This document shows positions 18,638 through 31,728 of a stretch of DNA of 64,000 bases, one piece after another. The position numbers and the translations under genes were made by a program. The DNA is from Clostridia bacterium (GTDB taxonomy: Bacteria > Bacillota > Clostridia > Oscillospirales > CAG-272). Under the pieces are notes generated by a model. The model worked only from the letters and a program-made list of their open reading frames with translations. It was not told where the DNA came from and ran no database searches. The stretch spans positions 157,190-221,189 of the forward strand of contig JAFTPV010000003.1 in assembly GCA_017463125.1 (NCBI GenBank), in the 5' to 3' direction. Within the stretch, counting starts at the first letter, position 1. Every line of letters starts with the position of its first letter.

Positions 18638-18672
18638 ATGTTTTCCCCTTTACGGAGATATTTCTCTCCGAA

Positions 18673-19713
18673 TCAGTCATCGTTCTTAAGCGCGTTTCTT
18701 ACATAGTCGGTGGTCAAAATCTTTTTGACCGTGCCCTCAACGTCAAGGCGATTAGTATTATGGCTAGTATATGCTTCGTCAGCCATAGTCTGCACCTGAC
18801 CATTAACAACGAATTTATCATAGTTCAAATCACGACTGTCTGCCGCTACACGATAATACTGCCCCATATCCTCACTACGCAAGCGCTCCTCACGAGTCAT
18901 GAGTGTTTCATAAAGCTTCTCACCGTGACGGGTACCTATAATATTAGTTCCCGTGTCGCCAAAGAGCGATTGAACAGCTTTGGCAAGATCACCGATTGTA
19001 GATGCATCGGCTTTTTGGATAAATAAATCGCCAGGGTTAGCATGTTCAAAAGCAAAACGCACAAGCTCCACTGCCTCATCGAGATTCATAAGGAATCTCG
19101 TCATATTGGGATCAGTGATAGTGATAGGGTTTCCCGCCTTAATTTGATCAATAAACAACGGTATAACCGAGCCGCGAGAACACATAACGTTACCGTAACG
19201 GGTACAGCAGATTACCGTGTTTCCTCGTTCTGCCGCAACGCGAGCGTTAGCATAGATAACATGCTCCATCATAGCCTTGGAAATTCCCATAGCGTTGATG
19301 GGGTAAGCCGCCTTATCGGTAGAAAGACATACTACACGTTTTACGCCGGTTTCAATTGCAGCGTGAAGCATATTGTCTGTTCCGATTATGTTGGTGCGAA
19401 CAGCTTCCATAGGGAAAAACTCGCAAGAAGGCACCTGCTTGAGCGCCGCCGCGTGGAAAACGTAATCAACGCCCCACATAGCATCCTTGATGCTCTGCGC
19501 ATTACGCACGTCACCTATGTAAAACTTCACCTTATGAGCATATTCCGGATGCTTCACCTGAAGCTCGTGGCGCATATCGTCCTGCTTCTTCTCATCTCGC
19601 GAAAAAATACGGATCTCGCCGATATCAGATGACAAAAAATTTTTCAAAACTGTGTTTCCAAAGGAACCCGTTCCTCCGGTTATCATTAAGATTTTATTAC
19701 TAAAAGAACTCAT
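18673..19713 (-). CDS. fnlA: UDP-GlcNAc 4,6-dehydratase/5-epimerase, CapE/FnlA-type
   Basis: ILMITGGTGSFGNTVLKNFL...IRIFSRDEKKQDDMRHEL is the characteristic CapE/FnlA N-terminus; 346 aa with a strong AGGAGGA RBS. Confidence 0.88.
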   Translation of the reverse strand: MSSFSNKILMITGGTGSFGNTVLKNFLSSDIGEIRIFSRDEKKQDDMRHELQVKHPEYAHKVKFYIGDVRNAQSIKDAMWGVDYVFHAAALKQVPSCEFFPMEAVRTNIIGTDNMLHAAIETGVKRVVCLSTDKAAYPINAMGISKAMMEHVIYANARVAAERGNTVICCTRYGNVMCSRGSVIPLFIDQIKAGNPITITDPNMTRFLMNLDEAVELVRFAFEHANPGDLFIQKADASTIGDLAKAVQSLFGDTGTNIIGTRHGEKLYETLMTREERLRSEDMGQYYRVAADSRDLNYDKFVVNGQVQTMADEAYTSHNTNRLDVEGTVKKILTTDYVRNALKNDD

Positions 19714-19716: not shown

Positions 19717-21564
19717 TTAGTCCTCCTCTTTATATACAGTATTATTTATTCTCAACAGATAGTCATCAAAAATATGATAACAAAAAGTACTTCCCTTAGG
19801 ATGATTCAAAGCTCCGCCTATATCCGCCTCGCTCCAAGATTCACCATTATCAAAGCTGATAGCTAATTCGCCTCCTTGACCGGAAAAAACTATTGACTGA
19901 TCTATTTTTTGCAAAAGGTATGCAGGTTCTTTTGCTTCAAAAATCGGTCTGAAGCTGTTATAATCATCTATATTCTCAAGTCTTCCCACATAAACGCCGG
20001 TTGCATTGCGAGAAAAAGATACATCTCTGTCTTTTATCGGCGAAACTACCCGCTTATCCTTCAGATCATCATGATCAGAAGCATAAATCAGGGTGTTATC
20101 ATCATCGTCCTTCCATAAAACCCCAAGCGTTCTTTGCACAGACGTTTCAGACGAATTTAATCGGTAAATATCAAATTTGTCAGAAGCCTTTCGTTCAGAA
20201 AAAGTATCCGCTTCTTTCATCTGGATATACAGCAACCATGAATTGGGATATATCTCACCGGTTCCGATAATCCAGCCATCACGAACACGGTTGATATGAT
20301 GAATGTGTCTGCAAGATATAGGATTGTCAGGAGACGCGACAAACTCATGAAGATACATCTTGTTTTGATCTGCAATTTCTACCTTGAATAACAGTCCGTT
20401 TCCCGCACTTGTCTCGTTCACTTCGGAATTAACCGTCCATTCAAGCGGGGACTCTGTAGAGCTTACACTGACTATATTTCCCGTGTCGTATCCGCACGGA
20501 AAATCCGATCTGAGCGTTAGTTTGCCGTTTTCACAACCAACCGTGAAGTTTTTCGGCTCCTCCCATTTGAATTTCTCCTTTGGGTCCTTATCGGCATCGG
20601 TCGGCACAACGCAACCCCTTCTTCTTAGCGTTATAGTTCCGCTTGTACCGTCAGGCGCGGTTATGGGATTGCCAAAGTTTCTTCCCCATTCGCTTTTTCC
20701 CTGCTGAAACTTATATTCTCCCATATCGCCAAACTCGTATTTGCAAAACCACTGTCTGCCGCCGTCGTCCGACATAAACACACAAGTTCTGACGCCTACG
20801 GTCAGATTGCCTCTATATGTCGCAAGCACAGCCATTTTTCTGTCGGCACTGAAACCCGACATATAGTAGAAAGGATTGCCCTGCGCTTCTCTTCGCGCAA
20901 TATAAAATCTCGGAAGCTCGCCTTGCTTTGACTTGAAGGTTGCTCCAAAGCCCGAGCCGCCGTATTTTCCTTTCTCTGATACCGCAGGATGATACCCATA
21001 TGCCTCACGAGGCAATCCGGGATAATATCTTTCATATTCCGCACATTCCGGATGGTCGATCGGATACTTCCTTTCGGGGAGGTCCCAGATAACGCTCTCT
21101 TCAAAGCGAACTATATCAAAAGCTTCACTTCTTCCCTCGCAATCCTTGCGTCTTGCAGGGTAATTGTGATATATCTGTCCTTTATCCGTAACGATCATCA
21201 GTCGCCACGACCTCACGGATTGAGTCGGACTGATGCTTCGATAATATGGCAATATTCGGCTATACATATATTTACTGCCGGGTATAAGACCGGGAAGGTT
21301 TTTTTCATCAAATGATACCGTGTATTTTATTGACGGGTAGCGATAATCAGGATAGATTAGCAGCTTATTCTTATTAGAAAGCACGACCACGCTATCGTCT
21401 GCGCATTCTATCTTTTTGTCACCAACGCGCCTTTTATATACCTGAAACCTCGCTCTGTCAAGAAGAAGTTCGTAGGAGAATACGTTGTTGACCTTTGCCC
21501 TATGTAATCTCGTGCCGAGATACATCTTGGCTTTATATTTCAACTCACTGAGTTTCTTGCTCAT
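19717..21564 (-). CDS. Hypothetical 615-aa protein with Asp-box (BNR) motifs, probably a beta-propeller; no signal peptide or TM
   Basis: Strong RBS (AAGGAGGAG) located inside the 3' end of wzx. There are two S-x-D-x-G-x-x-W motifs (FMSDDGGRQW, ISFDNGESW). I recognise no other family. Confidence 0.5.
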   Translation of the reverse strand: MSKKLSELKYKAKMYLGTRLHRAKVNNVFSYELLLDRARFQVYKRRVGDKKIECADDSVVVLSNKNKLLIYPDYRYPSIKYTVSFDEKNLPGLIPGSKYMYSRILPYYRSISPTQSVRSWRLMIVTDKGQIYHNYPARRKDCEGRSEAFDIVRFEESVIWDLPERKYPIDHPECAEYERYYPGLPREAYGYHPAVSEKGKYGGSGFGATFKSKQGELPRFYIARREAQGNPFYYMSGFSADRKMAVLATYRGNLTVGVRTCVFMSDDGGRQWFCKYEFGDMGEYKFQQGKSEWGRNFGNPITAPDGTSGTITLRRRGCVVPTDADKDPKEKFKWEEPKNFTVGCENGKLTLRSDFPCGYDTGNIVSVSSTESPLEWTVNSEVNETSAGNGLLFKVEIADQNKMYLHEFVASPDNPISCRHIHHINRVRDGWIIGTGEIYPNSWLLYIQMKEADTFSERKASDKFDIYRLNSSETSVQRTLGVLWKDDDDNTLIYASDHDDLKDKRVVSPIKDRDVSFSRNATGVYVGRLENIDDYNSFRPIFEAKEPAYLLQKIDQSIVFSGQGGELAISFDNGESWSEADIGGALNHPKGSTFCYHIFDDYLLRINNTVYKEED

Positions 21565-23026
21565 TTTCCGGCTCCTCCTTCTTCTTTTTCATCTTTGCAA
21601 AGAGGGATATGATCTTCTTTCTGAGAATAAACGCAATAATCGTCATCGCTACTATCACGGAATAGCGTATCCAAGTGTAATCATACAACGCAATACAAGC
21701 TATCGAGCATCCCACAAGCACCGCAGAAAGCAAGAGTATATACAGTTCATTGAACACTCTTCCCTTGTGCACGATGCGCATAAAGATGTACTGCATCACC
21801 GTAAGGATAATATAGCTTGCAAGCGTGGTATACGCCGCCGCCATATATCCGAATTCCTGAATGAATACGTAGTTCAAGACTATATTTGCCGTAGCGGCTG
21901 TTAACGTTGACACCATTATCCAATAGGTTTTTTTGTGGTATAGCAAGACATCTCCAAAAATATTATAAGTCGCAGAGAAGAAGACTCCGCACGCAACGGG
22001 CGGCATTATGTATATCGCCTCGTAATATTCTTTTGGCGCAAGGATCCAGACGATCTCTGGTGCAACCAATGTCAAAAACAGGCAAACTCCCGCAAATACC
22101 GCAAGCAGCGGGTTTACTATTGCAGAAATGTTTTTTTCGGTCTTATTTCTTAGGTTCTCGAAGGTATATGGCAAAAGGCTCGATTCTATTGCACCCCAAA
22201 CTATCAGCGACAAAGAACTGACCGTGTACAAAGTGGTATATATTCCGGTCGCGCTCTTGTCTATCATATTCGTTATCATTGTCCTGTCGGACACCTCAAG
22301 AATATGCTTAGCCAACGAATTAACGATAAGCGGTGTGTTGGTTATAAGTGCGAACTTCCAGAACTTCAGATTGACGAGTGTCTTTCCTTTAGATATCAGA
22401 TATATAGCACACGCCAGACCAACCGCGCAGTGCACCGCCTGGAGACCGACTATTCTATAGGGCGCGAGATTCTCTGCATCTAGGTATCTTCCCAAAAATA
22501 CCGCAGCGATCGCGAGCGCCGTACCGCATATGGCGTTAGTCAACGAAATGGATATTAGCTGCTTATATTTGTATTCAAAGCGAAGCCTTGTGATCCTGTA
22601 CTCCATCGCGGGAACAAGCCAGAACGCCGCGAGCATCACCGTCACTTCAACAGTATTGAGCGACAGTACCCCGTTCCAAAACTCCGGATTTGCAAAATAT
22701 ATTAACACAAATACCAGGGTTGAAACACTCGATAGTCCAATCATCGACGAGGAATATTTGTCTCTTTCCTCGGGATATTCAAACATCGCAAGCGAAAACG
22801 CTCCCGAGCTCAGCGATAGGGTTGCAACCACGCTTATCATCGAATACCAGGATGCAAATGTGCTGAATTCTCCTATCTCTGCCGGTGTCATTATTCTTGT
22901 GAATAAGGGGGTGGTTATTATTCCGAGTCCCTTTGTAAACAAGCTTGCAAGCGTGTACGCGATCGTCGCCTTTGCGGCAACCGATAATAGCTTGTATTTG
23001 CTCAGCAATTTTCTAAATTTTATCAT
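21545..23026 (-). CDS. wzx: Wzx-type oligosaccharide flippase (MOP superfamily)
   Basis: 493 aa, about 12-14 TM segments, with a typical polysaccharide-biosynthesis-protein N-terminus (ATIAYTLASLFTKGLGIITTPLFTRIMTPAEIGEF). Confidence 0.8.
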   Translation of the reverse strand: MIKFRKLLSKYKLLSVAAKATIAYTLASLFTKGLGIITTPLFTRIMTPAEIGEFSTFASWYSMISVVATLSLSSGAFSLAMFEYPEERDKYSSSMIGLSSVSTLVFVLIYFANPEFWNGVLSLNTVEVTVMLAAFWLVPAMEYRITRLRFEYKYKQLISISLTNAICGTALAIAAVFLGRYLDAENLAPYRIVGLQAVHCAVGLACAIYLISKGKTLVNLKFWKFALITNTPLIVNSLAKHILEVSDRTMITNMIDKSATGIYTTLYTVSSLSLIVWGAIESSLLPYTFENLRNKTEKNISAIVNPLLAVFAGVCLFLTLVAPEIVWILAPKEYYEAIYIMPPVACGVFFSATYNIFGDVLLYHKKTYWIMVSTLTAATANIVLNYVFIQEFGYMAAAYTTLASYIILTVMQYIFMRIVHKGRVFNELYILLLSAVLVGCSIACIALYDYTWIRYSVIVAMTIIAFILRKKIISLFAKMKKKKEEPENEQETQ

Positions 23027-23055: not shown

Positions 23056-24162
23056 TTAAATATATATTCGTGGTACACGCTTAGATATGGAACAAACAAT
23101 CTCGTATCCTATGGTTCCGACCATTGACGCTAATGTATCAGCATCAATTCCATTACCAATAAGGGTTACTTCATCTCCCTCAAGCACACCTTCTATATGA
23201 GTCACATCAACCATTGTTTGATCCATACAAACACGTCCTACAATGCGTGCTTTTTGCCCCTTTATCATAACGTATCCGCGATTTGATAATTGTCTGTTAT
23301 ATCCATCTGCATAACCTACCGGCAATGTGGCAATTTTCATTTTTTGCTCGGCACAAAAACTTCTACCATAACCTACACATTCTCCGCGTTCAATTGTCTT
23401 GACCAATGAAACCACCGTTTTCCAAGTTAAAACTGGCTGTATTCCTTCTGGAAGTTTGATTTTTTGATTGTAACGCAAACCGTACATAACGATGCCCAAA
23501 CGTACTATATTATCACATTTGCAGTTTGGGGATTGGTAGAATCCACCAGCAGAATTAAGACAATGTATATATTGCAAATTCAAATCCGATATAATGTCCA
23601 TCAAATGCTCAAATTTCCGAATTTGTCTATTCGTAAACATCAAATCGTCACTTTCAATGCTATCTGCCGCACAAAGATGGGTAAAAAAACCATTAAGATT
23701 ACAGCGTGTTGCGTACTTTTTAATAACCTCAGCGCTTTCTTCTACCTTTACGCCAATACGATTCATACCTGTATCAATAGCAAATTGGCATTTTATCTCA
23801 CTTGAAAAGGATAACAGCTGTTCAGCATACGCCTCAGACAACAGCGCTTGTGTAATATCGTATTTCAGCAACTCAGGGGCTAATTCTACCGGAGTGTATC
23901 CCAAAACAAGAATTTCGCCCTTTATTCCAGATTCACGTAAAATAATAGCCTCATCAATATTTGACACTGCAAACAAATCAACGCCTATTTGACTTAGTTT
24001 TTTAGAAACGGCTACATCTCCGTGCCCATAAGCATCTGCTTTGACTACAGCCATAATTTTTGCCTCATCAGTCAAATATCTGCGATATATTTCTAAATTG
24101 CATTCAAGCTGCGACAAATCGACCTCAACCCATGACCGTCGCGTAAAACGCGTTGTGTACAT
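23056..24162 (-). CDS. Alanine racemase paralogue 2, embedded in the polysaccharide operon
   Basis: PLP motif AVVKADAYGHG plus GYADGYNR, VCMDQTMVDV. The ATG at 24162 lies 1 nt after the TAG of the upstream ATP-grasp gene. Confidence 0.85.
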   Translation of the reverse strand: MYTTRFTRRSWVEVDLSQLECNLEIYRRYLTDEAKIMAVVKADAYGHGDVAVSKKLSQIGVDLFAVSNIDEAIILRESGIKGEILVLGYTPVELAPELLKYDITQALLSEAYAEQLLSFSSEIKCQFAIDTGMNRIGVKVEESAEVIKKYATRCNLNGFFTHLCAADSIESDDLMFTNRQIRKFEHLMDIISDLNLQYIHCLNSAGGFYQSPNCKCDNIVRLGIVMYGLRYNQKIKLPEGIQPVLTWKTVVSLVKTIERGECVGYGRSFCAEQKMKIATLPVGYADGYNRQLSNRGYVMIKGQKARIVGRVCMDQTMVDVTHIEGVLEGDEVTLIGNGIDADTLASMVGTIGYEIVCSISKRVPRIYI

Positions 24163-24163
24163 A

Positions 24164-25087
24164 CTATTGTTTTTCCTTTTCACTAAAATGGAGCATATCT
24201 CCAATTTCAATATCGTGTCTCATATCCTTGAACGGCATAAATCCGCCGCAAGGCGAAAAAGTCAACTCTGAAAAATATACCTTTCCGTTTATTTCATAAA
24301 GGTCTACTCGAAGAAAATCAACACCATTAGAAAGCCTTGATGCAATGTCAAGCATTTCATCAAAACGTTTAGGCTTAGGAGGCAGTTTATCAAACGGGCG
24401 AAAATCGCTTCTCTCATAGGGCGCAAACTGCCAGTCGCAAGTAACAAAGCTTATTCTTGCGGTTGAGTGATCTTCAAGCCCCTCGGAAATATAAAGAAAC
24501 TTAGGTTCTCCGTTAAAACAGTAGAACTTGTAGTCGCGCAAACCGTTACCCGAATCATCTTCCATATATTGCTCTGCTAAAATACGCGGTTTTACATCCT
24601 TATAAGGCCATTCTCTGCCCTGATAGAAATATTTTGTTTTTAGACTCTTTTCAATCTTTCTCTTCGCCTTGGACTTGTCCAATTTGGATTTGTCGCGCAC
24701 AATAACTAATCCGCCCGAATCGTGCGTGCACTTAAGCACAAACTGATCGGGAAGCATATCAAAATCTATGTCATCAAAGTTTTTCCAAACACCGAGAGTC
24801 GGGATAATGTGCTCTTCACCTATACGTTCAGCAACATATATTTTCGCATCGTGCTTATCTACCATAGTCGTATATATCGGCTTGCGATCATACAACTTCA
24901 GCCACTGTATTTTTTCGTTGAAACTTTTCGGATTTTTCAAATCCAACTCTTTTCCAAATTTAAGTTCAAACCACTTTTTAAGATATTCTTCATCAGAAAG
25001 GTGATTATAAAACCCTAAATTTCCTAATATTCTGATTCTGTATTTACGATTTGTGACCAACTTCCACAACTTATTGATTTTACTCAT
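24164..25087 (-). CDS. TupA-like ATP-grasp amidoligase (paralogue 1)
   Basis: LKNPKSFNEKIQWLKLYDRKPIYTTMVDKHDAKIYV...FVLKCTHDSGGLVIVRDK...REWPYKDVKPRILAEQYMED...LRDYKFYCFNG...LRVDLYEINGKVYFSELTFSPCGG. The ATG at 25087 has an AAGGA RBS. Confidence 0.7.
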   Translation of the reverse strand: MSKINKLWKLVTNRKYRIRILGNLGFYNHLSDEEYLKKWFELKFGKELDLKNPKSFNEKIQWLKLYDRKPIYTTMVDKHDAKIYVAERIGEEHIIPTLGVWKNFDDIDFDMLPDQFVLKCTHDSGGLVIVRDKSKLDKSKAKRKIEKSLKTKYFYQGREWPYKDVKPRILAEQYMEDDSGNGLRDYKFYCFNGEPKFLYISEGLEDHSTARISFVTCDWQFAPYERSDFRPFDKLPPKPKRFDEMLDIASRLSNGVDFLRVDLYEINGKVYFSELTFSPCGGFMPFKDMRHDIEIGDMLHFSEKEKQ

Positions 25088-25337
25088 ATCATATCCTTGT
25101 ATTTGTTCTTTGCTTGGCGTTGCTCCGAACACAACGACCATATTTCAAATATCATTATTTTCTCCACTTCAATTTCAAACAGCCTTTGTGCCTCAAAATT
25201 GTTTCAGATACAACGGCAAAGCAACGTTTACTTTAGCAAACACATTTGTCAAGTGCACATATGCTTAAACGGTAACATCATTTGTGATTTGTGCTTTTCA
25301 ACACGCGGTCCACACCCACATCAAACTTCAAAAGTTA

Positions 25338-26504
25338 TTACAATTGCCCATATGCAATTTTGTGTCTATCCTCCGGCTTGGTTTTTTTCATAACTCTCAT
25401 CCAACGAAGGACCTCCGCCGTCTTATCTCCAAATGCACTGCGACCGTGCGACATCTGTGAACTCCAGAATCCACCGCCGTAAGTATTTGCTTCAATCAAG
25501 ATAGGTTCACCATCCTCGCCAAGCGTAAAATCCCAATGGATGACGCCTATCTGCGGAATTACAGCATGCATTCTTTTGGCGGCTTTAAGCGCTTTGACGA
25601 ACAAGGGATTGTTATATCCATCAAACACAAAATGAGTATCAGGATGCTCTTTGAACTGAGTGTTGAATTCGGTAAATGCGGTATCATGATATGTTCCGTC
25701 ATCATCCACCGCAACAAACATACCTCCCGCGTGAGCATTGTCAACAAATCCTCCTCCGCTACCTATACGCATGATACTCGGAATATGCTCTATTCCTTCC
25801 TTCCAGCGATATGTTCTGATTCTGAATGTGTTGACCGAACCGGGATATATATCAGTGAATGATTTGTGACACTTTATTCGCCTTTGAATAACAAAATCAT
25901 TGCCCATATCTGTCAAAATTTCAGATACGGTTTTGCCTGACACGGTGTCCACTCCATTGTCGAAATTAATAAAGCAACAGCCCTGTCCGCTGCAAGAATC
26001 TACGCTGGGCTTCATAAAGCCCTCTCCTATGTCTTTCAGAAATTCTACAGATTCGCTTCTGGTCAACATATTAAGTCCATTATCCTTATACGTGCCCCGG
26101 GTTGCCGAGAAAATAGTTTCCGGAACCTTTATTCCCGCACTCTTCGCAATAAACGGCAACACGTTTTTGTCAGCAAAAACCTTGTCGTATCCATTATACA
26201 AATTCATAAACCGCTCAAACTCGGGAATGCCTATAAGCTCAGGAAAATAATTAACATCAAAATTCCCCGTATATGCTGTAAAATATCTATGCCATATATA
26301 TGGAATTTTCTCTCCATAGTTTGATAAATAAAGATCATCGATAGCTTTCATCTGGCTTTCCGTCAGTACGGTACGACTATAGATCTCTATTCTTCGTTCA
26401 TCCTTGAATTTTTTGATCTCTGTGTTTCTTCTGTGGGAGATAAGGATCTTGTCATAACAATTCCCCACCAATCTCATACCTTTTGTTATTATAGAATTCG
26501 GCAT
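25338..26504 (-). CDS. ATP-grasp protein of the 'sugar-transfer associated' type
   Basis: 388 aa. The pattern resembles ATP-grasp enzymes found in exopolysaccharide loci: N-terminal ...FPELIGIPEFERF..., then FMKPSVDSCSGQGC, VIQRRIKCH, MRIGSGGGFVDNAHAGGMFVAVDDDG and IHWDFTLGEDGEPILIEANT. AAGGAG RBS. Confidence 0.6.
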   Translation of the reverse strand: MPNSIITKGMRLVGNCYDKILISHRRNTEIKKFKDERRIEIYSRTVLTESQMKAIDDLYLSNYGEKIPYIWHRYFTAYTGNFDVNYFPELIGIPEFERFMNLYNGYDKVFADKNVLPFIAKSAGIKVPETIFSATRGTYKDNGLNMLTRSESVEFLKDIGEGFMKPSVDSCSGQGCCFINFDNGVDTVSGKTVSEILTDMGNDFVIQRRIKCHKSFTDIYPGSVNTFRIRTYRWKEGIEHIPSIMRIGSGGGFVDNAHAGGMFVAVDDDGTYHDTAFTEFNTQFKEHPDTHFVFDGYNNPLFVKALKAAKRMHAVIPQIGVIHWDFTLGEDGEPILIEANTYGGGFWSSQMSHGRSAFGDKTAEVLRWMRVMKKTKPEDRHKIAYGQL

Positions 26505-26517
26505 AATAACTCCTTTT

Positions 26518-27603
26518 TTAGCGACAAATTAGTTCTATCCAGCGATCAACAATAACCTTCTTTGAGCATATAGATGATATTTTCCTGTACGACTCCTCAC
26601 CCATTGCAACGCGTTCCTCTGCAGTAGTATTTATTGCACTTCTCAATGCCTCGGTTATTGAGGAAACGCTATGCGGGTCACATAAAAATCCGTTGGTTTC
26701 ATCAACCAGCACCATATAATCAGATACCGCAGTCATAACGATGGGCTTTTTTAATGCCATTCCTTCGAGAATACCATTTGGCAATCCCTCCATACAACTA
26801 AACAAAGACACAAAATCAGCTTCTGCCATTCTGTCGTGTATCTTGTCGGTTGCAGGATGCAAAAATATGATTTTATCAATACCCCTTGATACTATTTTTT
26901 CTTGACACGCAGACAAAAGATCCGAATTTTCGTCTCCAACATTGAACTTTCCGTACCAATGTAGTTCTATGTTCTGACGTTCCTCTTGGGACAAATCGGC
27001 AATTGCTTGTATCACGCGCTCAAGGTTTTTTTCCTTTTCATATCTGGCAGCCACAACAAACCTCGTTTTACCATCTTTAATTGGTTTACACTCACTATGT
27101 ATCGGTTGCACGATATTATAAACTGTTTCAAGTTTTTTTTCGGTTTTGGGAAAATATTTTTTCCAAAGGTCTTCGGCACTCTTTGAATTACACACGATCA
27201 TATCGGCGCGGTTGCCTACTATCATTCTGATAATCTTTTTCTTTCTGCCTACAAACAAACTGGGATTGCAAATTCTCTCGCTCGCTATAAGTCTCCACTT
27301 GTGTGGACCAATTGAAGCCAAGGCCGCATAAAAATTTGGTGATCCCATAAAAGATATAACCACGTTTGGCTTTATTTGATTAAAGCGCTTTCGTATAACC
27401 AACGCTCTAGCAAGCCCACCTTTTGCGGTAATCAGCTCGGGAGATATTTCTGCCTCGTCCAATATTGACTTGTAAAAATCATCAGCGCGATATTTCAGAA
27501 AGAATATTTCATGACCTCGTTCCTTGAGCGCGACTGCCAGATTAGCCATCTGTCTTTGCGCCCCTCCGAATCCAAGGCCATCGATAAGTAGCGCAATTTT
27601 CAT
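26518..27603 (-). CDS. GT4-family glycosyltransferase
   Basis: MKIALLIDGLGFGGAQRQ... N-terminus and a C-terminal E-x7-E region (CMEGLPNGILEGMALKKPIV). Confidence 0.85.
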   Translation of the reverse strand: MKIALLIDGLGFGGAQRQMANLAVALKERGHEIFFLKYRADDFYKSILDEAEISPELITAKGGLARALVIRKRFNQIKPNVVISFMGSPNFYAALASIGPHKWRLIASERICNPSLFVGRKKKIIRMIVGNRADMIVCNSKSAEDLWKKYFPKTEKKLETVYNIVQPIHSECKPIKDGKTRFVVAARYEKEKNLERVIQAIADLSQEERQNIELHWYGKFNVGDENSDLLSACQEKIVSRGIDKIIFLHPATDKIHDRMAEADFVSLFSCMEGLPNGILEGMALKKPIVMTAVSDYMVLVDETNGFLCDPHSVSSITEALRSAINTTAEERVAMGEESYRKISSICSKKVIVDRWIELICR

Positions 27604-27670
27604 ACGCTATATCTCCTTTTATCTATGTATTTGGATTTACAAATGTTTAGCCGTAGAAACAAACCTCACA

Positions 27671-28534
27671 TCAATGTTTCGGCAGCTCTATCCAGTCGCC
27701 AAACGTTTTATCCCATTCTTCAGGCTCAAACGGTACCATTCCGCTCCAATGCGAAAATGTCAATTCTCCAAAGTATATCTTTCCATCCACCTCGTAAAAA
27801 TCCACTCTCAAATGAGGAATGCCCTCCGAGAGCTTTTCCGCAAGCTTTTTCATTTTTTCAAAGTTTTCCGGCTTTTCGGGGGGGACTTCCGCGTTTGGAT
27901 GTCCGTTGCGTACGGGCAGGTGGTTGTACTCCGCATCAAAAAAGTCAAATTTTGTTTCCTCGTTTTCCTTTTGTCTTTCCGATGCGATAAAAAGCGCTTT
28001 TACTTTTCCATTAAACGCGAAAAACTTATAATCGCGCAATTCTTCGGTCTTGGAGTCCTCCATATATTCCTCCGCCAGCACGCGAGGCTTGACGTTCTTA
28101 TACGGCCATTCTCTTCCGGCATAATAGAAATTTCTTTTAAGGCATTTTTCGATTTTCTCTTTTGCTGCTGCCTTGTCGAGGTTGTTTTTGTCTTTGACAA
28201 TTACAAGTCCACCGCTGTCATGTGTGCATTTAAGAACAAATCTATCCGGAAGTTTGTCAAAATCAATATCATCAAAATGATCCCATACACCGAGTGTTTT
28301 TATTATGTACTCTTCACCAATGCGTTCTGCAACGTACCTCTTTGCTTCATATTTATCTACCATTTCCGTGTATATCGGTTTGCGATCGTGAAGCTTGAGC
28401 CACTGGAGCTTTTCGTTATACGTTACAGGGTTTTTGAGATTCAGCTTTTTCTTCATAGCAACCCTGTACTTCAGTTTAAGAAACGGAACGTCGGGCAAAA
28501 ATTTCAGATTGTCCGCACTTATTATTTTTCCCAT
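27671..28534 (-). CDS. TupA-like ATP-grasp amidoligase (paralogue 2)
   Basis: LKNPVTYNEKLQWLKLHDRKPIYTEMVDKYEAKRYV...FVLKCTHDSGGLVIVKDK...REWPYKNVKPRVLAEEYMED...LRDYKFFAFNG...LRVDFYEVDGKIYFGELTFSHWSG. The ATG at 28534 has a GGAGA RBS. Confidence 0.7.
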   Translation of the reverse strand: MGKIISADNLKFLPDVPFLKLKYRVAMKKKLNLKNPVTYNEKLQWLKLHDRKPIYTEMVDKYEAKRYVAERIGEEYIIKTLGVWDHFDDIDFDKLPDRFVLKCTHDSGGLVIVKDKNNLDKAAAKEKIEKCLKRNFYYAGREWPYKNVKPRVLAEEYMEDSKTEELRDYKFFAFNGKVKALFIASERQKENEETKFDFFDAEYNHLPVRNGHPNAEVPPEKPENFEKMKKLAEKLSEGIPHLRVDFYEVDGKIYFGELTFSHWSGMVPFEPEEWDKTFGDWIELPKH

Positions 28535-28550
28535 ATCAATCTCCAAAAAA

Positions 28551-28745
28551 TTATTTCAGGGCATCCAAAAATTCCTTCATGGTGTCCTTGTATAATCTAT
28601 AATCAAAATTTTCTTCCGCAGTCTTATACGCGGCTTTTCTCATCTCGGGATTCTTGTCGAGCATTTCCCATGCGCGGATAAGCGCATCGCGGCACGTTTC
28701 TATTTATTCGTACGCAAAACTTTCTTCTGCGCAGTACTTGGAGTC
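28551..28745 (-). pseudogene. 3'-terminal remnant of a GT4 glycosyltransferase gene (copy of the 3' end of 29474-30637)
   Basis: The remnant translates to ...IETCRDALIRAWEMLDKNPEMRKAAYKTAEENFDYRLYKDTMKEFLDALK*. The intact gene reads VEACRDALIRAWEMLDKNPKMRKSAYETAVQNFDYRLYSDAMGRFLSKI*. They share a 40-bp identical DNA core, and the remnant has an in-frame stop upstream and no N-terminus. Confidence 0.75.
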
Positions 28746-28752: not shown

Positions 28753-29346
28753 TTAACCTGTGCCGTTTTTCCTATTCTTGTTCCACTCCAGGCTTCCGTT
28801 GCGACTTATAATCTTTGCGGGAACTCCTGCTATTGCAACGTTTTCTTCCAAGCAGTCTTTATTAACAACAGCATTAGCTCCAATGGCCACATAATTAGCA
28901 ATTTTCACACTTCCCAAAACGCACGCTCCATATCCCACGATAACTCTATCGCCCAAAGTCGGAACACCATCGTTAGTTCCTCCCGCAACCAATGCGCTGT
29001 TCATGTGGAAACTGCAATCTCTCCCCACCGTCGAACGATTGTTAATCAGAACGGGGCCTAAATGAACTATTTTCAAGCCCTTGCCACAACAATTCAGCGG
29101 AACGTGTAGTTCATATTTAGTTTGCAGCCTTGTCAATTTAAACTTGGATATGATAAATCTCAGTTTTTTGTTTGTGTTCAGATAGTACTCAGTCTTTCTC
29201 AACAGTTTTTGATGTTTTAAAAGAACCGCGGTCTCGCCAATAGTTAAAAATCGTTTAACAAATCCGCATGGGTATTTTGCCCTTTCATATTTTAACCATT
29301 CCTGTAGCTCTTGCCGATTTGTTATTCTATCTTCTTGATTTAACAT
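28753..29346 (-). CDS. Serine-acetyltransferase-like hexapeptide O-acetyltransferase
   Basis: C-terminal LbH repeats (GDRVIVGYGACVLGSVKIANYVAIGANAVVNKD...IAGVPAKII) and an N-terminal helical domain typical of EPS O-acetyltransferases. The ATG is at 29346; an alternative GTG lies at 29379. Confidence 0.75.
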   Translation of the reverse strand: MLNQEDRITNRQELQEWLKYERAKYPCGFVKRFLTIGETAVLLKHQKLLRKTEYYLNTNKKLRFIISKFKLTRLQTKYELHVPLNCCGKGLKIVHLGPVLINNRSTVGRDCSFHMNSALVAGGTNDGVPTLGDRVIVGYGACVLGSVKIANYVAIGANAVVNKDCLEENVAIAGVPAKIISRNGSLEWNKNRKNGTG

Positions 29347-29473
29347 GTTTTCCCTCGCATTTTTTACCTTTATTATCACAATATCGATAACATCAACTGT
29401 TTCTCTACTTCGTGATTAAAAACGGAATATCCAAAATTCAAATCATGCAAAAGTCATACGCTTATCGGGTGCG

Positions 29474-30637
29474 TCATATTTTTGATAGAAATCGCCCCAT
29501 TGCATCACTATATAGCCTATAATCAAAGTTCTGCACAGCAGTTTCATATGCAGATTTTCTCATCTTGGGATTCTTATCGAGCATTTCCCATGCGCGGATA
29601 AGCGCATCGCGGCACGCTTCTACCGATTCGTCGGCAACAACTATTCCATTTTCTCCATCCTTGAGATACGTTCCTATGTCGCCCGTAATATTCGCAATAA
29701 AAGGGATCCCCGCCGCAAAGCTCTCTACCATTTTTGTTGAAAATCCGGCATTTGCTCTGCGTGTCGGCTTTCGGATAAGTACCGTGAAATGACACTCGTT
29801 GAGTTTTGCGGGTATTTCATCCTGCTTCTGTCTGCCGTGACACACTACGTAGTTTGGAACTTCATCAATTCCTTGTGTCTTCAAATATGAGAGCAAGCCC
29901 TTTTCATCGGGTCCGTATACGTGAAGCTCGGTCTTCGCTTTAAGCTCCTCCGGCATCTCTCCTATCGCTCGCACAACAGTACCAAGCTCGTCCTTGCCCA
30001 CACCAGGAACACCTGCGTAGGCAATTTTCAATTTGTTTGGCTCATCAACGTCTTTTTTTACGTTCCACTTCTCATCGGTAAGATCGACAATGTTAGGGAT
30101 CATGACGGCGTGTGTGCCCTGCTCCTTAAAATAATCTGTCAATAGCGAACTTATGAGTATTCCTGCATCTGCGTTTTTTGCAACGTACGGAATCAAACCA
30201 ACAGTTCCCTTGACGTGTCTTTTAGAGACGGTAGCGGAAAAGCACTCTTCTGTATACCATTCGCAATTGAATCCGCCAAATTTTATGCTTCTGCGATGAC
30301 AGTATTTTCTTACCGCCTTTGCAGTTGACTCAATTCCGCCATACAAAAACACTACTTCGGGTTTTTCAAGCTTTCGCAAGATATGCTTGGCATACACCTC
30401 AAAATGCAGGTTATACACGTACATTACCAGCTTGTTGTGTGCAGTAGCGTCAAAATTGACGTATTTTATTCCTTCATATTCCCCGTTCAGAGGATATTCT
30501 GTTTTAATCGTACGTCTGCAGCCAACAACCGTAACGTTATGTCCGCACGCAACCATCGTCCTGCATACGTTCAATATATAAGTTGATGATGCGTTTCCGT
30601 CCGGGAACGGCGCTGTGCTCAATATGAGTATATTCAT
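29474..30637 (-). CDS. GT4-family glycosyltransferase
   Basis: MNILILSTAPFPDGNASS... The C-terminal region has FSTKMVESFAAGIPFIA (E-x7-E-like). The start at 30637 overlaps the upstream stop. Confidence 0.85.
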   Translation of the reverse strand: MNILILSTAPFPDGNASSTYILNVCRTMVACGHNVTVVGCRRTIKTEYPLNGEYEGIKYVNFDATAHNKLVMYVYNLHFEVYAKHILRKLEKPEVVFLYGGIESTAKAVRKYCHRRSIKFGGFNCEWYTEECFSATVSKRHVKGTVGLIPYVAKNADAGILISSLLTDYFKEQGTHAVMIPNIVDLTDEKWNVKKDVDEPNKLKIAYAGVPGVGKDELGTVVRAIGEMPEELKAKTELHVYGPDEKGLLSYLKTQGIDEVPNYVVCHGRQKQDEIPAKLNECHFTVLIRKPTRRANAGFSTKMVESFAAGIPFIANITGDIGTYLKDGENGIVVADESVEACRDALIRAWEMLDKNPKMRKSAYETAVQNFDYRLYSDAMGRFLSKI

Positions 30638-31728
30638 TTCTTCTTGCTTCCTTTTTTTCGGATAGCCTCGCGTATGCACTCATCCCAGATTGCTTTTACC
30701 TTGGGAATTGAATATACCTCGCATACCTCTTTGGCATTTTTCGAGATTTTCTCGTATTTCTCGCGGTCAGCACAAAGATTCAAAGCCTCTTTTACAAATG
30801 CATCTTTGTCGTTGAGCGGAACCACAATTCCGCGTCTACCGTAATCAGCAAGCACATCCACACCGCCGTTACAGCGGAATGATACGCTGGGCAGTCCCAC
30901 GGCCATCGCTTCGCTCAGTGCATTTGGAAATCCTTCGTTCTTTGATGACATAAGATAAATATCGGATTCGCAAAGCACCCCATAAGTGTCAGTAGTATAT
31001 CCCGCAAGCATCGCCGTACCTTCAAGCCCGAGGTCCTTGATCTGCTGCTCCAATCTTTCCTTGTGAGGTCCGTGACCGTATATCTTAAGATCGGTTTTGG
31101 GGTTAGCTTTATGTATTTCCGCAAACATATCAAGCAACACGTCAAATTGTTTTGAATCATTTAGCCTGCCGCAAGAAACGAACCGTGTAATCTCACCCTT
31201 TTGGCTGATGTCCTTTACCTTGTCGGGTGTGGCTATATAGTTTGGAGTAACTCTACATTTGTCAATATATCTTCCGTTGCACAGCTTTCTGAATTCATCG
31301 AACTGTACGGTTAAAAGGTCCGCCCTATCATATGCTTTCCGAAGCAAATAATTCCACGGGAACTTCCACGTTGCAACCAAGGGGTTGATTCTTTCGCACG
31401 CAATGATAGGAACAGTGCTTTTTAATTGCCCTAAACACAGCATTATGCTGTTCTGAGTTATAAATGAGATTACTATATCCGGCTTTTCTTCTTTTACACG
31501 CTTTCTTACCCATTTAACTTGGAAAGGAAACACACGAAATCCTGTTGGCTTGTCATTTGCATCGAGCTCTATAAACTTTACACCCGGGCACTCATATCTT
31601 TTTTCAATGGTCTTATGCGTTAACAAGACCGAAACGTCCTCGGTCTTTGCATATTCGGTAGCAAGCAACTGTATAATATTACCCGCTCCACCCATGTAAT
31701 TATCAACTACAAACAGTATTTTCATCAT
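30634..31728 (-). CDS. GT4-family glycosyltransferase
   Basis: MKILFVVDNYMGGAGN... with SKNEGFPNALSEAMAVGLPSV (E-x7-E). The start is M18 or M19 of the ORF-track protein and overlaps the wzy 3' end. Confidence 0.85.
   Translation of the reverse strand: MMKILFVVDNYMGGAGNIIQLLATEYAKTEDVSVLLTHKTIEKRYECPGVKFIELDANDKPTGFRVFPFQVKWVRKRVKEEKPDIVISFITQNSIMLCLGQLKSTVPIIACERINPLVATWKFPWNYLLRKAYDRADLLTVQFDEFRKLCNGRYIDKCRVTPNYIATPDKVKDISQKGEITRFVSCGRLNDSKQFDVLLDMFAEIHKANPKTDLKIYGHGPHKERLEQQIKDLGLEGTAMLAGYTTDTYGVLCESDIYLMSSKNEGFPNALSEAMAVGLPSVSFRCNGGVDVLADYGRRGIVVPLNDKDAFVKEALNLCADREKYEKISKNAKEVCEVYSIPKVKAIWDECIREAIRKKGSKKK

What the first reader, a model, noticed from the sequence alone, without database searches (positions are those of the whole stretch)
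23056..28546. Glycan locus carrying its own alanine racemase plus three ATP-grasp ligases: predicted D-amino-acid (or peptide-stub) amidation of a uronic-acid polysaccharide
Seen: four genes sit co-directionally in the core of the Wzx/Wzy locus.
- A second alanine-racemase paralogue (AVVKADAYGHG). Its ATG lies 1 nt after the TAG of the upstream gene (TAGtATG), so it is translationally coupled to an ATP-grasp gene.
- Two paralogous ~290-310-aa proteins with the TupA-like ATP-grasp pattern (NEKxQWLKL.DRKPIYT.MVDK..AK.YV, VLKCTHDSGGLVIV.DK, REWPYK.VKPR.LAE.YMED, LRDYKF).
- A 388-aa ATP-grasp of the type found next to sugar transferases.
- The same operon ends with UDP-glucuronate 4-epimerase and a GalK-variant kinase, so uronic acids are the obvious acceptors.
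Established knowledge: TupA-type ATP-grasp enzymes make amide bonds on uronate carboxylates. Examples are the teichuronopeptide of Bacillus halodurans and the glucuronamide decorations of the Campylobacter jejuni capsule. Alanine racemases provide D-Ala, and close relatives provide D-Ser.
Inference: the racemase feeds a D-amino acid to the ligases. These then either amidate two different uronate residues or build a short D-amino-acyl/peptidyl stub on the repeat unit. This would be a Dlt-independent way to put D-Ala on a cell-surface polymer. I do not know of a characterised locus combining racemase + 2 TupA-like + 1 ATPgrasp_ST, so this is my best candidate for an undescribed system.
Basis: partly seen in the sequence, partly recalled or inferred. 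Interest (0 to 1): 0.8.

Follow-up and report, generated by a model that had tools for sequence, protein, structure and literature searches.

The report
Glycan locus with its own alanine racemase
A surface-polysaccharide gene cluster of an uncultured gut or rumen Clostridia bacterium carries an extra alanine racemase fused into an operon with three amide-forming ligases, and the same racemase-ligase pairing recurs in many related clusters, so the sugar chain is most likely decorated with D-alanine; this chemistry is known from a few Gram-negative capsules, but the built-in racemase supply has not been described.

Summary
All score far above their Pfam cut-offs, and the TAGtATG junction is real.

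Alr2 keeps every catalytic residue, including the alanine-selecting Tyr354 equivalent, so it is not a VanT-type serine racemase.

The racemase-ligase link is not chance. A TupA-like gene abuts an alr within about 45 nt on the same strand in eight divergent loci, this window included. One locus inserts alanine dehydrogenase directly upstream of alr, between two TupA genes. An Alistipes locus has TupA-Ddl-Alr. TupA loci usually carry Ugd or UDP-GlcA 4-epimerase (13 of 17 loci with full flanks).

However, the closest sister locus (shared genes 46-89% identical, most 72-89%) lacks Alr2, TupA_a and ST, and 42 of 44 long TupA loci have no alr. Alr2 is therefore an optional supply gene.

The second racemase, Alr1, is a conserved edge gene of the locus.

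The product chemistry is already known: D-Ala amides of GalNAcA/GalA occur in A. baumannii K17 (gene alt1) and in a Vibrio alginolyticus EPS.

Verdict: a plausible D-Ala amidation module and a new variant of a known kind. No biochemistry was done.

The parts
23056..24162 (-). Alr2: accessory alanine racemase. Its ATG lies 1 nt after the TupA_b stop codon.
   Evidence: PF01168 and PF00842. TIGR00492 scores 353.8 bits against a cut-off of 168. K39, R136, H166, S204, Y265, M312/D313 and Y354 equivalents are all present. The gene is a clean gene-sized indel relative to sister locus L168.
24164..25141 (-). TupA_b: TupA-like ATP-grasp amidoligase. The likely true start is 25087.
   Evidence: PF14305 223.8 bits. 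AF2 model pLDDT 90.4. Best Foldseek PDB hits are Ddl, LysX and RimK. Orthologues 52-67% identical sit directly upstream of alr in L010, L011, L177, L178 and L179.
25338..26504 (-). ATPgrasp_ST ligase, 388 aa.
   Evidence: PF14397 159.8 bits. Conserved K165, R228, D325 and the E338-x-N340 motif. ST-type genes lie next to or near alr in L023, L030 and L031.
26518..27603 (-). GT4 glycosyltransferase interleaved between the ligases (GT4_c).
   Evidence: PF00534, PF13439 and PF13692.
27671..28534 (-). TupA_a: second TupA-like ATP-grasp amidoligase, 287 aa.
   Evidence: PF14305 237.2 bits. 55% identical to TupA_b. 73-76% orthologues occur in L006 and L178, both of which also carry Alr.
28591..28721 (-). 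Relic of the 3' end of a GT4 gene; a recombination scar between the acetyltransferase and TupA_a.
   Evidence: 83% identical over 132 nt to window 29511-29642. Also matches L168 6645-6797.
28753..29379 (-). Hexapeptide (CysE/EpsC-like) acetyltransferase, absent from sister locus L168.
   Evidence: PF00132. NCBIfam EpsC and cysE hits fall below their cut-offs. Absence in L168.
21545..23026 (-). Wzx-type flippase immediately downstream of Alr2.
   Evidence: PF01943. The TupA-Alr-Wzx order recurs in L178 and L179.
19717..21564 (-). Conserved 615-aa protein of unknown function next to Wzx.
   Evidence: No Pfam family above threshold and no PDB relative by sequence. Orthologues: L168 82%, L178 59%, L007 40%.
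15577..19713 (-). FnlA/CapE-like (18673-19713), acetyltransferase (18116-18637), FnlB/CapF-like (16745-18037) and FnlC/CapG-like 2-epimerase (15577-16794). This is the predicted UDP-L-FucNAc pathway.
   Evidence: Domain architectures PF02719+PF08485, PF01370+PF14667 and PF02350. The pathway assignment is an inference from the known CapE/F/G pattern.
14374..15552 (-). GalK-like GHMP sugar-1-kinase, diverged from true galactokinases.
   Evidence: PF00288, PF10509 and PF08544. All NCBIfam galactokinase models score below their cut-offs. Best PDB hits are galactokinases at E about 1e-36.
13622..14356 (-). Sugar-1-phosphate nucleotidyltransferase.
   Evidence: PF00483.
12552..13628 (-). UDP-glucuronate 4-epimerase-like SDR.
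   Evidence: PF01370. PDB hits are 5u4q (E 3.5e-109), then the 6zl6/6zla group (from memory, the B. cereus UDP-GlcA 4-epimerase). Homologues 70-84% identical sit next to Ugd in TupA loci.
11393..12517 (-). Alr1: conserved terminal alanine racemase of the locus, probably the lineage's resident copy.
   Evidence: PF01168 and PF00842. Catalytic residues are intact. Orthologues at 89%, 61% and 60% are always the last gene of otherwise different glycan loci.
29474..36079 (-). Backbone assembly genes: initiating phosphoglycosyl transferase (35348-36079), four GT4 genes (34101-35318, 33017-34066, 30634-31779, 29474-30679) and a Wzy-like polymerase (31703-32974).
   Evidence: PF02397 and the GT4 families. 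The Wzy-like protein has no Pfam hit here, but its L168 counterpart carries PF04932.

Best explanation
The locus is a Wzx/Wzy-dependent surface-glycan cluster. Its variable core carries an amino-acid decoration module.

Proposed mechanism:
1. Alr2 is a PLP-dependent alanine racemase. It converts cytoplasmic L-Ala to D-Ala.
2. A TupA-like ATP-grasp amidoligase uses ATP to activate the C6 carboxylate of a uronic-acid residue (GalA or GlcA) on the undecaprenyl-diphosphate-linked repeat unit, forming an acyl phosphate.
3. The ligase couples that acyl phosphate to the amino group of D-Ala, giving an N-(uronoyl)-D-alanine amide.
4. Wzx then flips the unit and Wzy polymerises it.

Roles of the individual ligases:
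- TupA_b is the most likely D-Ala ligase, because it is translationally coupled to Alr2.
- TupA_a most likely amidates a second uronate or uses a second amine.
- The ST-type ligase adds a further residue or a separate decoration.

Alr2 is a flux-boosting or supply gene rather than an obligatory part, because D-Ala also exists in the peptidoglycan precursor pool.

Shown: family membership, intact catalytic residues, recurrent gene coupling, and the link of TupA loci to uronate synthesis.
Inferred: the identity of the amine (D-Ala), the acceptor (a uronate), the lipid-linked stage, and the division of labour among the three ligases.
For: 1. Families and intact sites. Alr2 keeps the Lys39, Arg136, His166, Tyr265, Met312/Asp313 and Tyr354 equivalents. 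Tyr354 is the alanine-selecting residue, and VanT enzymes have Asn there (PMC4542195).

2. Coupling. TupA stop and alr start spacing, same strand:
- window: 1 nt apart
- L011: 4-nt overlap; L021: 1-nt overlap; L010: 8-nt overlap
- L178: 14-nt overlap; L179: 8-nt overlap; L177: 41 nt apart
- L095: about 12 nt apart
The TupA proteins in these loci are only 37-67% identical to TupA_b and the Alr proteins 52-60% identical to Alr2, so these are not copies of one recent locus.

3. L024 has TupA, GT4, alanine dehydrogenase, Alr, TupA. This is a pyruvate to L-Ala to D-Ala supply chain set between two ligases.

4. L142 has recruited a different alr lineage (36-39% identical) into a locus with two TupA genes, Ugd and FnlA.

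5. Enrichment: 6 of 29 against 0 of 51 loci (Fisher p = 0.0016). In the NJ tree Alr2 falls in a subclade in which 5 of 6 members sit in glycan loci.

6. Uronate acceptor. 13 of 17 TupA-anchored loci with full flanks carry Ugd and/or a UDP-GlcA-4-epimerase homologue. The window itself has the epimerase.

7. Precedent. The TupA-like C-terminal domain of C. jejuni Cj1438 amidates the GlcA C6 carboxylate (PMC11800379). A. baumannii K17 has a GalNAcA-D-Ala amide and a D-alanine transferase gene alt. A Vibrio alginolyticus EPS has GalA-D-Ala and GalA-D-Ser amides.

8. The TupA_b model is confident (pLDDT 90.4) and is closest to carboxylate-amine ATP-grasp ligases: Ddl, LysX, RimK.
Against: - Sister locus L168 shares GT4_1 (82%), GT4_3 (86%), TupA_b (80-85%), Wzx (89%), the 615-aa protein (82%) and FnlA (84%), yet has no Alr2, TupA_a, ST or AcT1. 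The TupA_b stop is followed by 21 nt and then Wzx. TupA_b-type ligases therefore work without a dedicated racemase.
- Only 2 of 44 TupA-anchored loci of at least 8 kb carry an alr.
- Any bacterium with peptidoglycan already makes D-Ala, so the presence of alr does not prove the amine is D-Ala, and its absence does not prove the opposite.
- No ugd gene is present in the window, so the source of UDP-GlcA is unresolved.
- Alr2 carries a unique Pro229-to-Tyr change at a second-shell active-site position. It is the only one of the 84 aligned Alr proteins (window plus loci) with this change.
- Nothing here is biochemical. No polysaccharide structure exists for this organism.
Confidence: 0.6

Rival explanations
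1. Peptide-stub model. The three ligases act in series. A TupA enzyme attaches the first D-Ala to a uronate. The ST-type ligase (and/or the second TupA) then extends its free carboxylate with a further residue. The result is a short D-amino-acid peptide on the repeat unit, like a teichuronopeptide or a peptidoglycan stem.
For: - Three ATP-grasp ligases accompany one racemase.
- Other glycan loci pair Alr with a bona fide Ddl-type D-Ala-D-Ala ligase: L028 has TupA-Ddl-Alr, and L009 and L030 have Ddl-Alr beside Fnl or ST genes.
- ST keeps the E-x-N ATP-grasp motif.
- ST's only NCBIfam hit is a weak match to RimK-related alpha-glutamate ligases, which extend alpha-carboxylates.
- Linked ATP-grasp ligases often act successively (PMC4431377).
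Against: - The window has no Ddl-type gene.
- L178 keeps TupA_a, TupA_b and Alr without ST, and L104 and L153 carry only ST-like fragments beside TupA genes, so ST is dispensable.
- Two TupA paralogues are explained more simply by two uronate sites.
- The Ddl-Alr pairs at locus edges (L009, L019, L025, L030) could be housekeeping peptidoglycan genes.
Confidence: 0.15
2. No functional link. The ligases attach L-amino acids or other amines such as Gly, L-Ser or ethanolamine phosphate. Alr2 is simply a second peptidoglycan-type racemase that hitch-hiked into a recombination-prone locus.
For: - The sister locus lacks Alr2 but keeps TupA_b.
- Most TupA loci lack alr.
- The locus is visibly mosaic: it carries a relic GT4 fragment.
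- Alr relatives of similar identity also occur in non-glycan contexts (L008, L012, L013, L022, L032).
- Cj1438C uses ethanolamine phosphate or serinol phosphate, not amino acids (the specific amines are from memory; the abstract quoted is cut off at that point).
Against: - Independent recurrence of tight, same-strand, often overlapping TupA-alr junctions in eight loci.
- Alanine dehydrogenase sits next to alr between two TupA genes in L024.
- A second, unrelated alr lineage has been recruited in L142.
- The enrichment statistics.
Confidence: 0.13
3. Amino-sugar acylation. Alr2 feeds an ST-type (or other) ligase that activates the carboxylate of D-Ala itself and attaches it to a sugar amino group, giving an N-D-alanyl amino sugar. 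This would leave a free amine and make the glycan zwitterionic. The TupA enzymes would handle the uronates separately.
For: - Alr is directly coupled to an ST-type ligase with no TupA in view in L023.
- Alr sits beside a DegT aminotransferase and an LAL-type ligase in L031.
- Alr is embedded between FnlB and FnlC in L007.
- Ddl and LAL-type ATP-grasp enzymes do activate amino-acid carboxylates.
Against: - In this window the tight coupling is to TupA_b, not to ST. A 196-nt gap separates ST from TupA_b.
- No aminotransferase, and no deacetylase that would free a sugar amine, was found in the locus.
Confidence: 0.07
4. Alr2 is not an alanine racemase in vivo. It racemises serine or another amino acid (VanT-like or broad-spectrum) and supplies D-Ser or similar.
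For: - The best NCBIfam hit is vanT-G-Cterm at 402 bits, and the best PDB hit is the VanTG racemase domain 4ecl.
- Alr2 has a unique Pro229-to-Tyr change at one of the four positions that distinguish VanT from Alr.
- D-Ser amides of GalA exist.
Against: - The vanT-G score is below its cut-off of 460, whereas the alr equivalog TIGR00492 passes at 354 against 168.
- The decisive position is Tyr (IGYE), not Asn. Asn-to-Tyr in VanTG cuts serine turnover 30-fold (PMC4542195).
- The protein has no membrane domain.
- Alr1 scores equally high on the vanT-G model, so the similarity is lineage-related.
Confidence: 0.05

Closest known systems
Acinetobacter baumannii KL17/K17 capsule with Alt1 ('D-alanine transferase')
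   Same: Both are Wzx/Wzy-type loci in which a uronic acid (GalNAcA in K17) is amidated with D-alanine by a dedicated locus-encoded enzyme (PMC9676051; bioRxiv 10.64898/2026.07.20.739706; K17 structure paper cited). From memory, Alt1 belongs to the ATPgrasp_TupA family.
   Different: No racemase is mentioned in the two A. baumannii K-locus survey papers searched (0 occurrences); the K17/KL17 paper itself is not held. K17 has one ligase, not three, and comes from a Gram-negative host. The sequence relation of Alt1 to TupA_a or TupA_b could not be tested here.
Campylobacter jejuni HS:2 Cj1438 C-terminal domain (TupA-like amidoligase)
   Same: [quoted passage not shown]
   Different: It is fused to a GT2 polymerising glycosyltransferase. 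Its amines are ethanolamine phosphate or serinol phosphate rather than an amino acid. It has no racemase partner.
Vibrio alginolyticus amino-acid-decorated EPS
   Same: GalA residues carry amide-linked D-alanine and D-serine (PMC4663550). A V. alginolyticus CPS locus contains an ATPgrasp_TupA gene (PMC11382117).
   Different: The enzymes are not assigned, no racemase is reported, and the host is a Gram-negative marine bacterium.
Bacillus halodurans TupA / teichuronopeptide, and Proteus WemR-type O-antigen ligases
   Same: These are the founding and predicted members of PF14305, associated with uronic-acid polymers that carry amino acids or peptides (PMC13419641).
   Different: Their activities are largely predicted. 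Teichuronopeptide carries polyglutamate. Proteus amides are mostly L-amino acids (from memory). Neither has an embedded racemase.
Dlt D-alanylation of teichoic acids
   Same: It places D-Ala, made by alanine racemase, on a Gram-positive surface polymer.
   Different: The chemistry and machinery are entirely different: DltA adenylation, the DltC carrier, DltB/DltD, and an ester bond that leaves a free amine and adds positive charge. No dlt-type domains were found in the window ORFs scanned, which is nearly all of those of 200 aa or more. The amide predicted here keeps a carboxylate.
VanT serine racemases
   Same: They give the highest-scoring NCBIfam and PDB matches for both Alr1 and Alr2.
   Different: Both window proteins have Tyr instead of Asn at the specificity position, lack the membrane domain, and score below the model cut-off.

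Membership tests
Alanine racemase (fold-type III PLP, Alr) | Ala_racemase_N plus Ala_racemase_C domain architecture, and an equivalog score above cut-off | tested here: met
   Alr2 scores PF01168 181 bits and PF00842 169 bits. TIGR00492 scores 353.8 against a cut-off of 168. Alr1 gives similar values.
Alanine racemase (fold-type III PLP, Alr) | PLP-binding Lys39 and second catalytic base Tyr265', plus Arg136, His166, Ser204, Met312 and Asp313 | tested here: met
   The motifs VVKADAYGHG, DTGMNRIG, FTHL, NSAGG, VGYGR and CMDQ are present in Alr2 and Alr1 in the alignment of 84 Alr proteins. The residue numbering rests on the G. stearothermophilus enzyme as recalled and as cited in PMC4542195.
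Alanine racemase (fold-type III PLP, Alr) | Tyr354 gate that restricts the substrate to alanine | tested here: met
   Alr2 has TIGYE and Alr1 has SISYE. The role of Tyr354 is described in PMC4542195.
Alanine racemase (fold-type III PLP, Alr) | Measured L-Ala/D-Ala interconversion | not testable with these tools
   An enzyme assay is needed.
VanT serine racemase | Asn at the Tyr354-equivalent position, with the Tyr-Ser-Thr-Asn signature | tested here: not met
   Alr2 has Ala-Tyr-Gly-Tyr and Alr1 has Ala-Pro-Ser-Tyr at the four positions.
VanT serine racemase | NCBIfam vanT-G-Cterm score above the cut-off of 460, and/or an N-terminal membrane acyltransferase domain | tested here: not met
   Scores are 402.3 and 393.5 bits. 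The proteins are 368 and 374 aa and contain racemase domains only.
ATPgrasp_TupA (PF14305) amidoligases | Full-length match to PF14305 above the gathering score | tested here: met
   TupA_a scores 237.2 bits and TupA_b 223.8 bits, both covering profile positions 1-240 of 241.
ATPgrasp_TupA (PF14305) amidoligases | ATP-grasp fold of the carboxylate-amine ligase type | tested here: met
   The AF2 model of TupA_b has pLDDT 90.4. Top Foldseek hits are Ddl, LysX, RimK and PsnB with probability 1.0 but TM-scores of only about 0.4. No closer solved structure exists by sequence.
ATPgrasp_TupA (PF14305) amidoligases | Location in surface-glycan loci that make uronic acids | tested here: met
   The window lies in a Wzx/Wzy locus with a UDP-GlcA-4-epimerase-like gene. 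13 of 17 TupA loci with full flanks carry Ugd and/or the epimerase.
ATPgrasp_TupA (PF14305) amidoligases | ATP-dependent amide formation on a uronate carboxylate | not testable with these tools
   Shown biochemically only for Cj1438C (PMC11800379).
ATPgrasp_ST (PF14397) | Match above the gathering score, with the ATP-grasp Lys and E-x-N metal motif intact | tested here: met
   159.8 bits against 31.4. K165, R228, D325, E338 and N340 are invariant across four ST homologues. The single-sequence structure model failed (pLDDT 33).
A. baumannii Alt1-type D-alanine decoration | D-Ala amide-linked to a uronic acid in the finished polymer | not testable with these tools
   No isolate or polysaccharide is available.
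A. baumannii Alt1-type D-alanine decoration | Sequence homology of the ligase to Alt1 | not tested
Dlt D-alanylation system | DltA (AMP-binding), DltB (MBOAT), DltC and DltD genes | tested here: not met
   None of these domains appears in the window ORFs scanned, which is nearly all of those of 200 aa or more.

The most novel reading that the evidence does not exclude
The alr-containing glycan loci of gut and rumen anaerobes may form an unrecognised class of 'peptidoglycan-mimicking' surface polysaccharides. In this reading, uronic acids carry D-Ala, or D-Ala-D-Ala or short D-peptide stubs. These would be built by TupA plus ST or Ddl-type ligases, fed by a dedicated AlaDH and Alr supply chain. 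Such stubs could serve as donors or acceptors for transpeptidases, which would anchor the capsule covalently to the wall. They could also act as decoys for glycopeptides, lysins or host D-Ala-recognising receptors. In this window the ST ligase would add the second residue.
Probability: 0.12. Interest if true: 0.8.

Novelty: new variant of a known kind. Interest (0 to 1): 0.5.

Why it matters
Amino-acid amides on uronic acids are a recurrent but enzymatically poorly understood source of capsule and O-antigen diversity. The TupA-like and ST-type ligase families have no solved structure and almost no assigned substrates.

An in-locus racemase gives a genomic marker that predicts which ligases use D-alanine. 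Elsewhere the marker is extended by alanine dehydrogenase or a Ddl-type ligase. It therefore points to tractable enzyme-substrate pairs.

It also suggests that D-Ala-decorated glycans are widespread in uncultured gut and rumen Clostridia and have been transferred to Bacteroidales. That is relevant to phage and antibody recognition and to resistance of the glycan to lyases.

The natural pair of this locus and sister locus L168, with and without Alr2, TupA_a and ST, is a ready-made comparative experiment.

Tried and rejected
- VanT / D-Ser reading: rejected. The specificity position is Tyr and the model score is below cut-off.
- Promoter and terminator scans: counts are not above shuffles (48 against 45.3; 20 against 17.3), so they say nothing about operon structure.
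- PDB sequence searches for TupA_b, ST and the 615-aa protein: no meaningful hits.
- Single-sequence AF2 model of ST: unusable (pLDDT 33), so no fold search was run on it.
- Comparison with the C. jejuni Cj1438 amidoligase and with A. baumannii Alt1: not possible, because neither sequence is in the accessible collections.
- Papers not held: Kenyon 2020 (K17) and Iyer 2009 (definition of the TupA and ST families).
- Literature searches combining racemase, ATP-grasp and polysaccharide locus: nothing relevant.
- Search for ugd and for a third alr in the window by motif: negative.
- Looking for a TupA subtype that tracks alr presence: no clean rule. Ligases adjacent to alr range from 37 to 67% identity to TupA_b, while the closest relatives of TupA_b whose flanks could be read (85% in L168, 72% in L170) have no alr.
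- Fisher test: first run with miscounted groups and corrected.
- The NJ tree is rough and is used only descriptively.

Full report
**What is there**

The window carries a long co-directional gene run on the minus strand, from about 37265 to 11393. Its G+C content is 0.36-0.44, against 0.45-0.52 in the flanks. Pfam and NCBIfam scans give this gene order:
- DUF4349 protein
- initiating phosphoglycosyl transferase (PF02397)
- GT4, GT4
- Wzy-like membrane protein
- GT4, GT4
- hexapeptide acetyltransferase
- TupA_a (27671-28534)
- GT4 (26518-27603)
- ATPgrasp_ST (25338-26504)
- TupA_b (24164-25141)
- Alr2 (23056-24162)
- Wzx (21545-23026)
- a 615-aa protein of unknown function
- FnlA-like, acetyltransferase, FnlB-like, FnlC-like
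- GalK-like GHMP kinase
- NTP transferase
- UDP-GlcA-4-epimerase-like SDR
- Alr1 (11393-12517)

The TAGtATG junction is real. TupA_b probably starts at 25087.

**The racemases**

Both Alr proteins keep every catalytic and PLP-binding residue in an alignment of 84 Alr proteins (the two window copies plus those from the retrieved loci). Both score highest on the NCBIfam vanT-G-Cterm model, but below its cut-off. Both pass the alr equivalog.

The position that makes VanT a serine racemase (Asn696 in VanTG, Tyr354 in the Geobacillus enzyme; PMC4542195) is Tyr in both. I therefore read them as alanine racemases. The VanT similarity is lineage-related.

Alr2 alone has Tyr in place of the near-universal Pro229 (YGLRYNQK). 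I cannot interpret this.

Alr1 orthologues at 89%, 61% and 60% identity are always the last gene of glycan loci whose upstream content differs (L173, L175, L176). L176 is syntenic with the window's downstream genes (DUF4832, MatE, FTHFS). Alr1 is thus a positionally conserved edge gene and probably the lineage's resident racemase. It sits beside an AraC regulator and a Na+:alanine symporter. Alr2 is the serotype-specific extra copy.

**Is the racemase-ligase link real?**

Exact copies of Alr2 occur on 8 metagenome contigs in the same locus. Its nearest relatives are only about 65% identical, yet they again sit in glycan loci.

A scan of 185,579 species genomes with Alr2 returned 80 loci. tblastn with the window's proteins found a TupA gene within 3 kb of alr in 6 of the 29 loci with Alr at least 50% identical, and in none of the 51 below that (Fisher p = 0.0016). 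Fewer than one such locus is expected by chance.

Three further relatives at 59-60% identity all show TupA directly upstream of alr, followed by Wzx or, in L177, an unannotated Wzx-sized gene. L178 reproduces the window's order: GT4, TupA_a-type, TupA_b-type, Alr, Wzx, 615-aa protein, FnlA.

In total the TupA stop and alr start are overlapping or within about 45 nt on the same strand in the window and in L010, L011, L021, L095, L177, L178 and L179. One gene intervenes in L006, L017 and L028.

Three loci are especially telling:
- L024 has TupA, GT4, alanine dehydrogenase, Alr, TupA. This is a complete pyruvate to L-Ala to D-Ala supply chain between two ligases.
- L028, from an Alistipes MAG, has TupA, Ddl-type ligase, Alr inside an Fnl/PGT locus.
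- L142 has recruited a different alr lineage (36-39% identity) into a locus with two TupA genes, Ugd and FnlA.

Alr is also found directly beside ST-type (L023), Ddl-type (L009, L030) and LAL-type (L031) ATP-grasp genes.

**The acceptor**

In a reverse scan anchored on TupA (80 metagenome loci), 13 of the 17 loci with full 8-kb flanks carry Ugd and/or a close homologue of the window's epimerase. The epimerase's second-best PDB relatives are the 6zl6/6zla group, which from memory is the B. cereus UDP-GlcA 4-epimerase. Its best hit, 5u4q, is deposited under a dehydratase name. In L016 the order is epimerase, Ugd, Alr. Uronic acids are therefore the natural acceptors. This matches the one characterised TupA-like enzyme, Cj1438C, which amidates the GlcA C6 carboxylate (PMC11800379).

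**What limits the claim**

The reverse scan found alr in only 2 of 44 loci of at least 8 kb.

The closest TupA_b orthologue (85% identical) lies in L168, a sister locus. Most of its shared genes are 72-89% identical to the window's (two are only 46-55%). It lacks the acetyltransferase, TupA_a, ST and Alr2. Nucleotide homology stops exactly at the TupA_b stop codon and resumes just upstream of the Wzx start. Alr2 and its spacer replace the 21-nt intergenic stretch of L168.

A relic of a GT4 3' end at 28591-28721 shows that the region was assembled by recombination.

Alr2 is therefore an optional accessory. It is best seen as a precursor-supply gene, like the extra ugd, galE or glmS copies often found in glycan loci. 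Because all peptidoglycan-containing bacteria already make D-Ala, neither its presence nor its absence fixes the chirality used by a given ligase.

Which of the three ligases uses D-Ala cannot be decided. Coupling points to TupA_b. The joint absence of TupA_a, ST and Alr2 from L168 leaves the others open.

**Mechanism proposed**

Alr2 raises the cytoplasmic D-Ala pool. A TupA-like ligase phosphorylates a uronate carboxylate on the lipid-linked repeat unit and couples it to the D-Ala amine. The second TupA paralogue treats a second uronate or a second amine. ST adds a further residue or another decoration. Wzx then exports the unit.

The resulting amide keeps a carboxylate. The functional consequence is epitope change and probably protection of the uronate from lyases, not the charge reversal produced by Dlt. 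I put 0.6 on the core statement: D-Ala from Alr2 ends up amide-linked in this glycan through one of these ligases.

**Comparison with the known, and novelty**

D-Ala amides of uronic acids are established in A. baumannii K17, where the gene alt1 is annotated as a D-alanine transferase (PMC9676051; bioRxiv 10.64898/2026.07.20.739706). They are also reported for a Vibrio alginolyticus EPS (PMC4663550). TupA-like enzymes are widely predicted to add amino acids to O-antigens and capsules (PMC13419641).

What I could not find described is a racemase embedded in, and translationally coupled to, such a module, with or without alanine dehydrogenase or a Ddl-type ligase. Searches are, and none of the relevant papers mentions a racemase. 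Also undescribed, as far as I could find, is its spread through gut and rumen Clostridia and into Bacteroidales.

This makes the finding a new variant of a known kind: useful for assigning substrates to two structurally uncharacterised ligase families, but not a new category of system.

**Limits of this work**

- All functional statements are inferences from sequence and gene context.
- The organism is an uncultured MAG lineage. Its nearest named relatives are 'Clostridia/Eubacteriales bacterium' MAGs from ruminant guts.
- Only 64 kb of the genome is visible.
- The sequences of Alt1 and Cj1438 could not be compared.
- The ST structure model failed.

Noticed in passing
window 28591-28721 (minus strand), between the acetyltransferase and TupA_a: A 132-nt stretch 83% identical to the 3' end of the GT4 gene at 29511-29642. 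It encodes a truncated C-terminal GT4 fragment. This is a recombination scar showing that the acetyltransferase and/or TupA_a cassette was spliced in.
   Followed up: yes
window 8758-12517; loci L173, L175, L176: Alr1 is the conserved last gene of otherwise variable glycan loci (orthologues at 89%, 61% and 60%). In the window it lies next to an AraC regulator and a Na+:alanine symporter. It may be the lineage's housekeeping racemase, placed as a conserved flank of the locus.
   Followed up: partly
window 13622-15552; also L011, L173, L176, L179: A diverged GalK-like GHMP kinase plus a small NTP transferase recur at the 3' end of these loci, often followed by the UDP-GlcA-4-epimerase-like gene. 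No ugd is present in the window. This looks like a sugar-1-phosphate salvage route, possibly GalA or GlcA to UDP-uronate as in plants. In L175 and L176 an APH-type kinase and NTP_transf_5 take part instead.
   Followed up: no
window 19717-21564; L168 10411-12234, L178 8614-10434, L007 227-1351: A 615-aa protein with no Pfam family above threshold (only a sub-threshold BNR repeat) and no PDB relative. It is conserved immediately downstream of Wzx in related loci (82%, 59% and 40% identity). Its role in the glycan pathway is unknown.
   Followed up: partly
L024 8839-12119: Alanine dehydrogenase, alanine racemase and a TupA-like ligase sit in a row, with another TupA and a GT4 just upstream, inside a Clostridia glycan locus from goat omasum. 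This is an apparently complete D-Ala supply chain.
   Followed up: partly
L028 8094-11149 (Alistipes); L009, L030; L014, L020, L022, L027, L029, L033 (Prevotellaceae/Rikenellaceae): Ddl-type D-Ala-D-Ala ligase genes lie next to Clostridia-like alr genes. In L028 the order is TupA-Ddl-Alr inside a glycan locus. Several Bacteroidales MAGs carry stand-alone Ddl-Alr pairs whose Alr is 50-53% identical to Alr2, which suggests cross-phylum transfer. L013 and L018 instead have peptidase C69, Alr and serine dehydratase.
   Followed up: partly
window 23470-23490 region of Alr2 (motif YGLRYNQK): Alr2 has Tyr where 83 other aligned Alr proteins, including its 65% relatives, have Pro (Pro229 of the Geobacillus enzyme). 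This is one of the four positions that differ between Alr and VanT enzymes. Its significance is unknown.
   Followed up: partly
window 11393-12517 and 23056-24162: Both racemases score higher on NCBIfam vanT-G-Cterm (394 and 402 bits) than on the alr equivalog. Automatic pipelines could mislabel them as vancomycin-resistance serine racemases.
   Followed up: yes
L104 1836-2165; L153 8884-9992 and 12002-13094: ST-type ligase genes next to TupA genes appear fragmented or frameshifted in these metagenome contigs. They are either decaying genes or assembly errors.
   Followed up: no
window 27524-28681 (+): A 385-aa TTG-initiated ORF runs antisense across TupA_a. It is most likely spurious, given the strong Pfam match on the opposite strand.
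   Followed up: no
window 47475-52745 (+): A 1756-aa BspA-type leucine-rich-repeat surface protein (PF13306, 14 stretches). It is unrelated to the finding.
   Followed up: no
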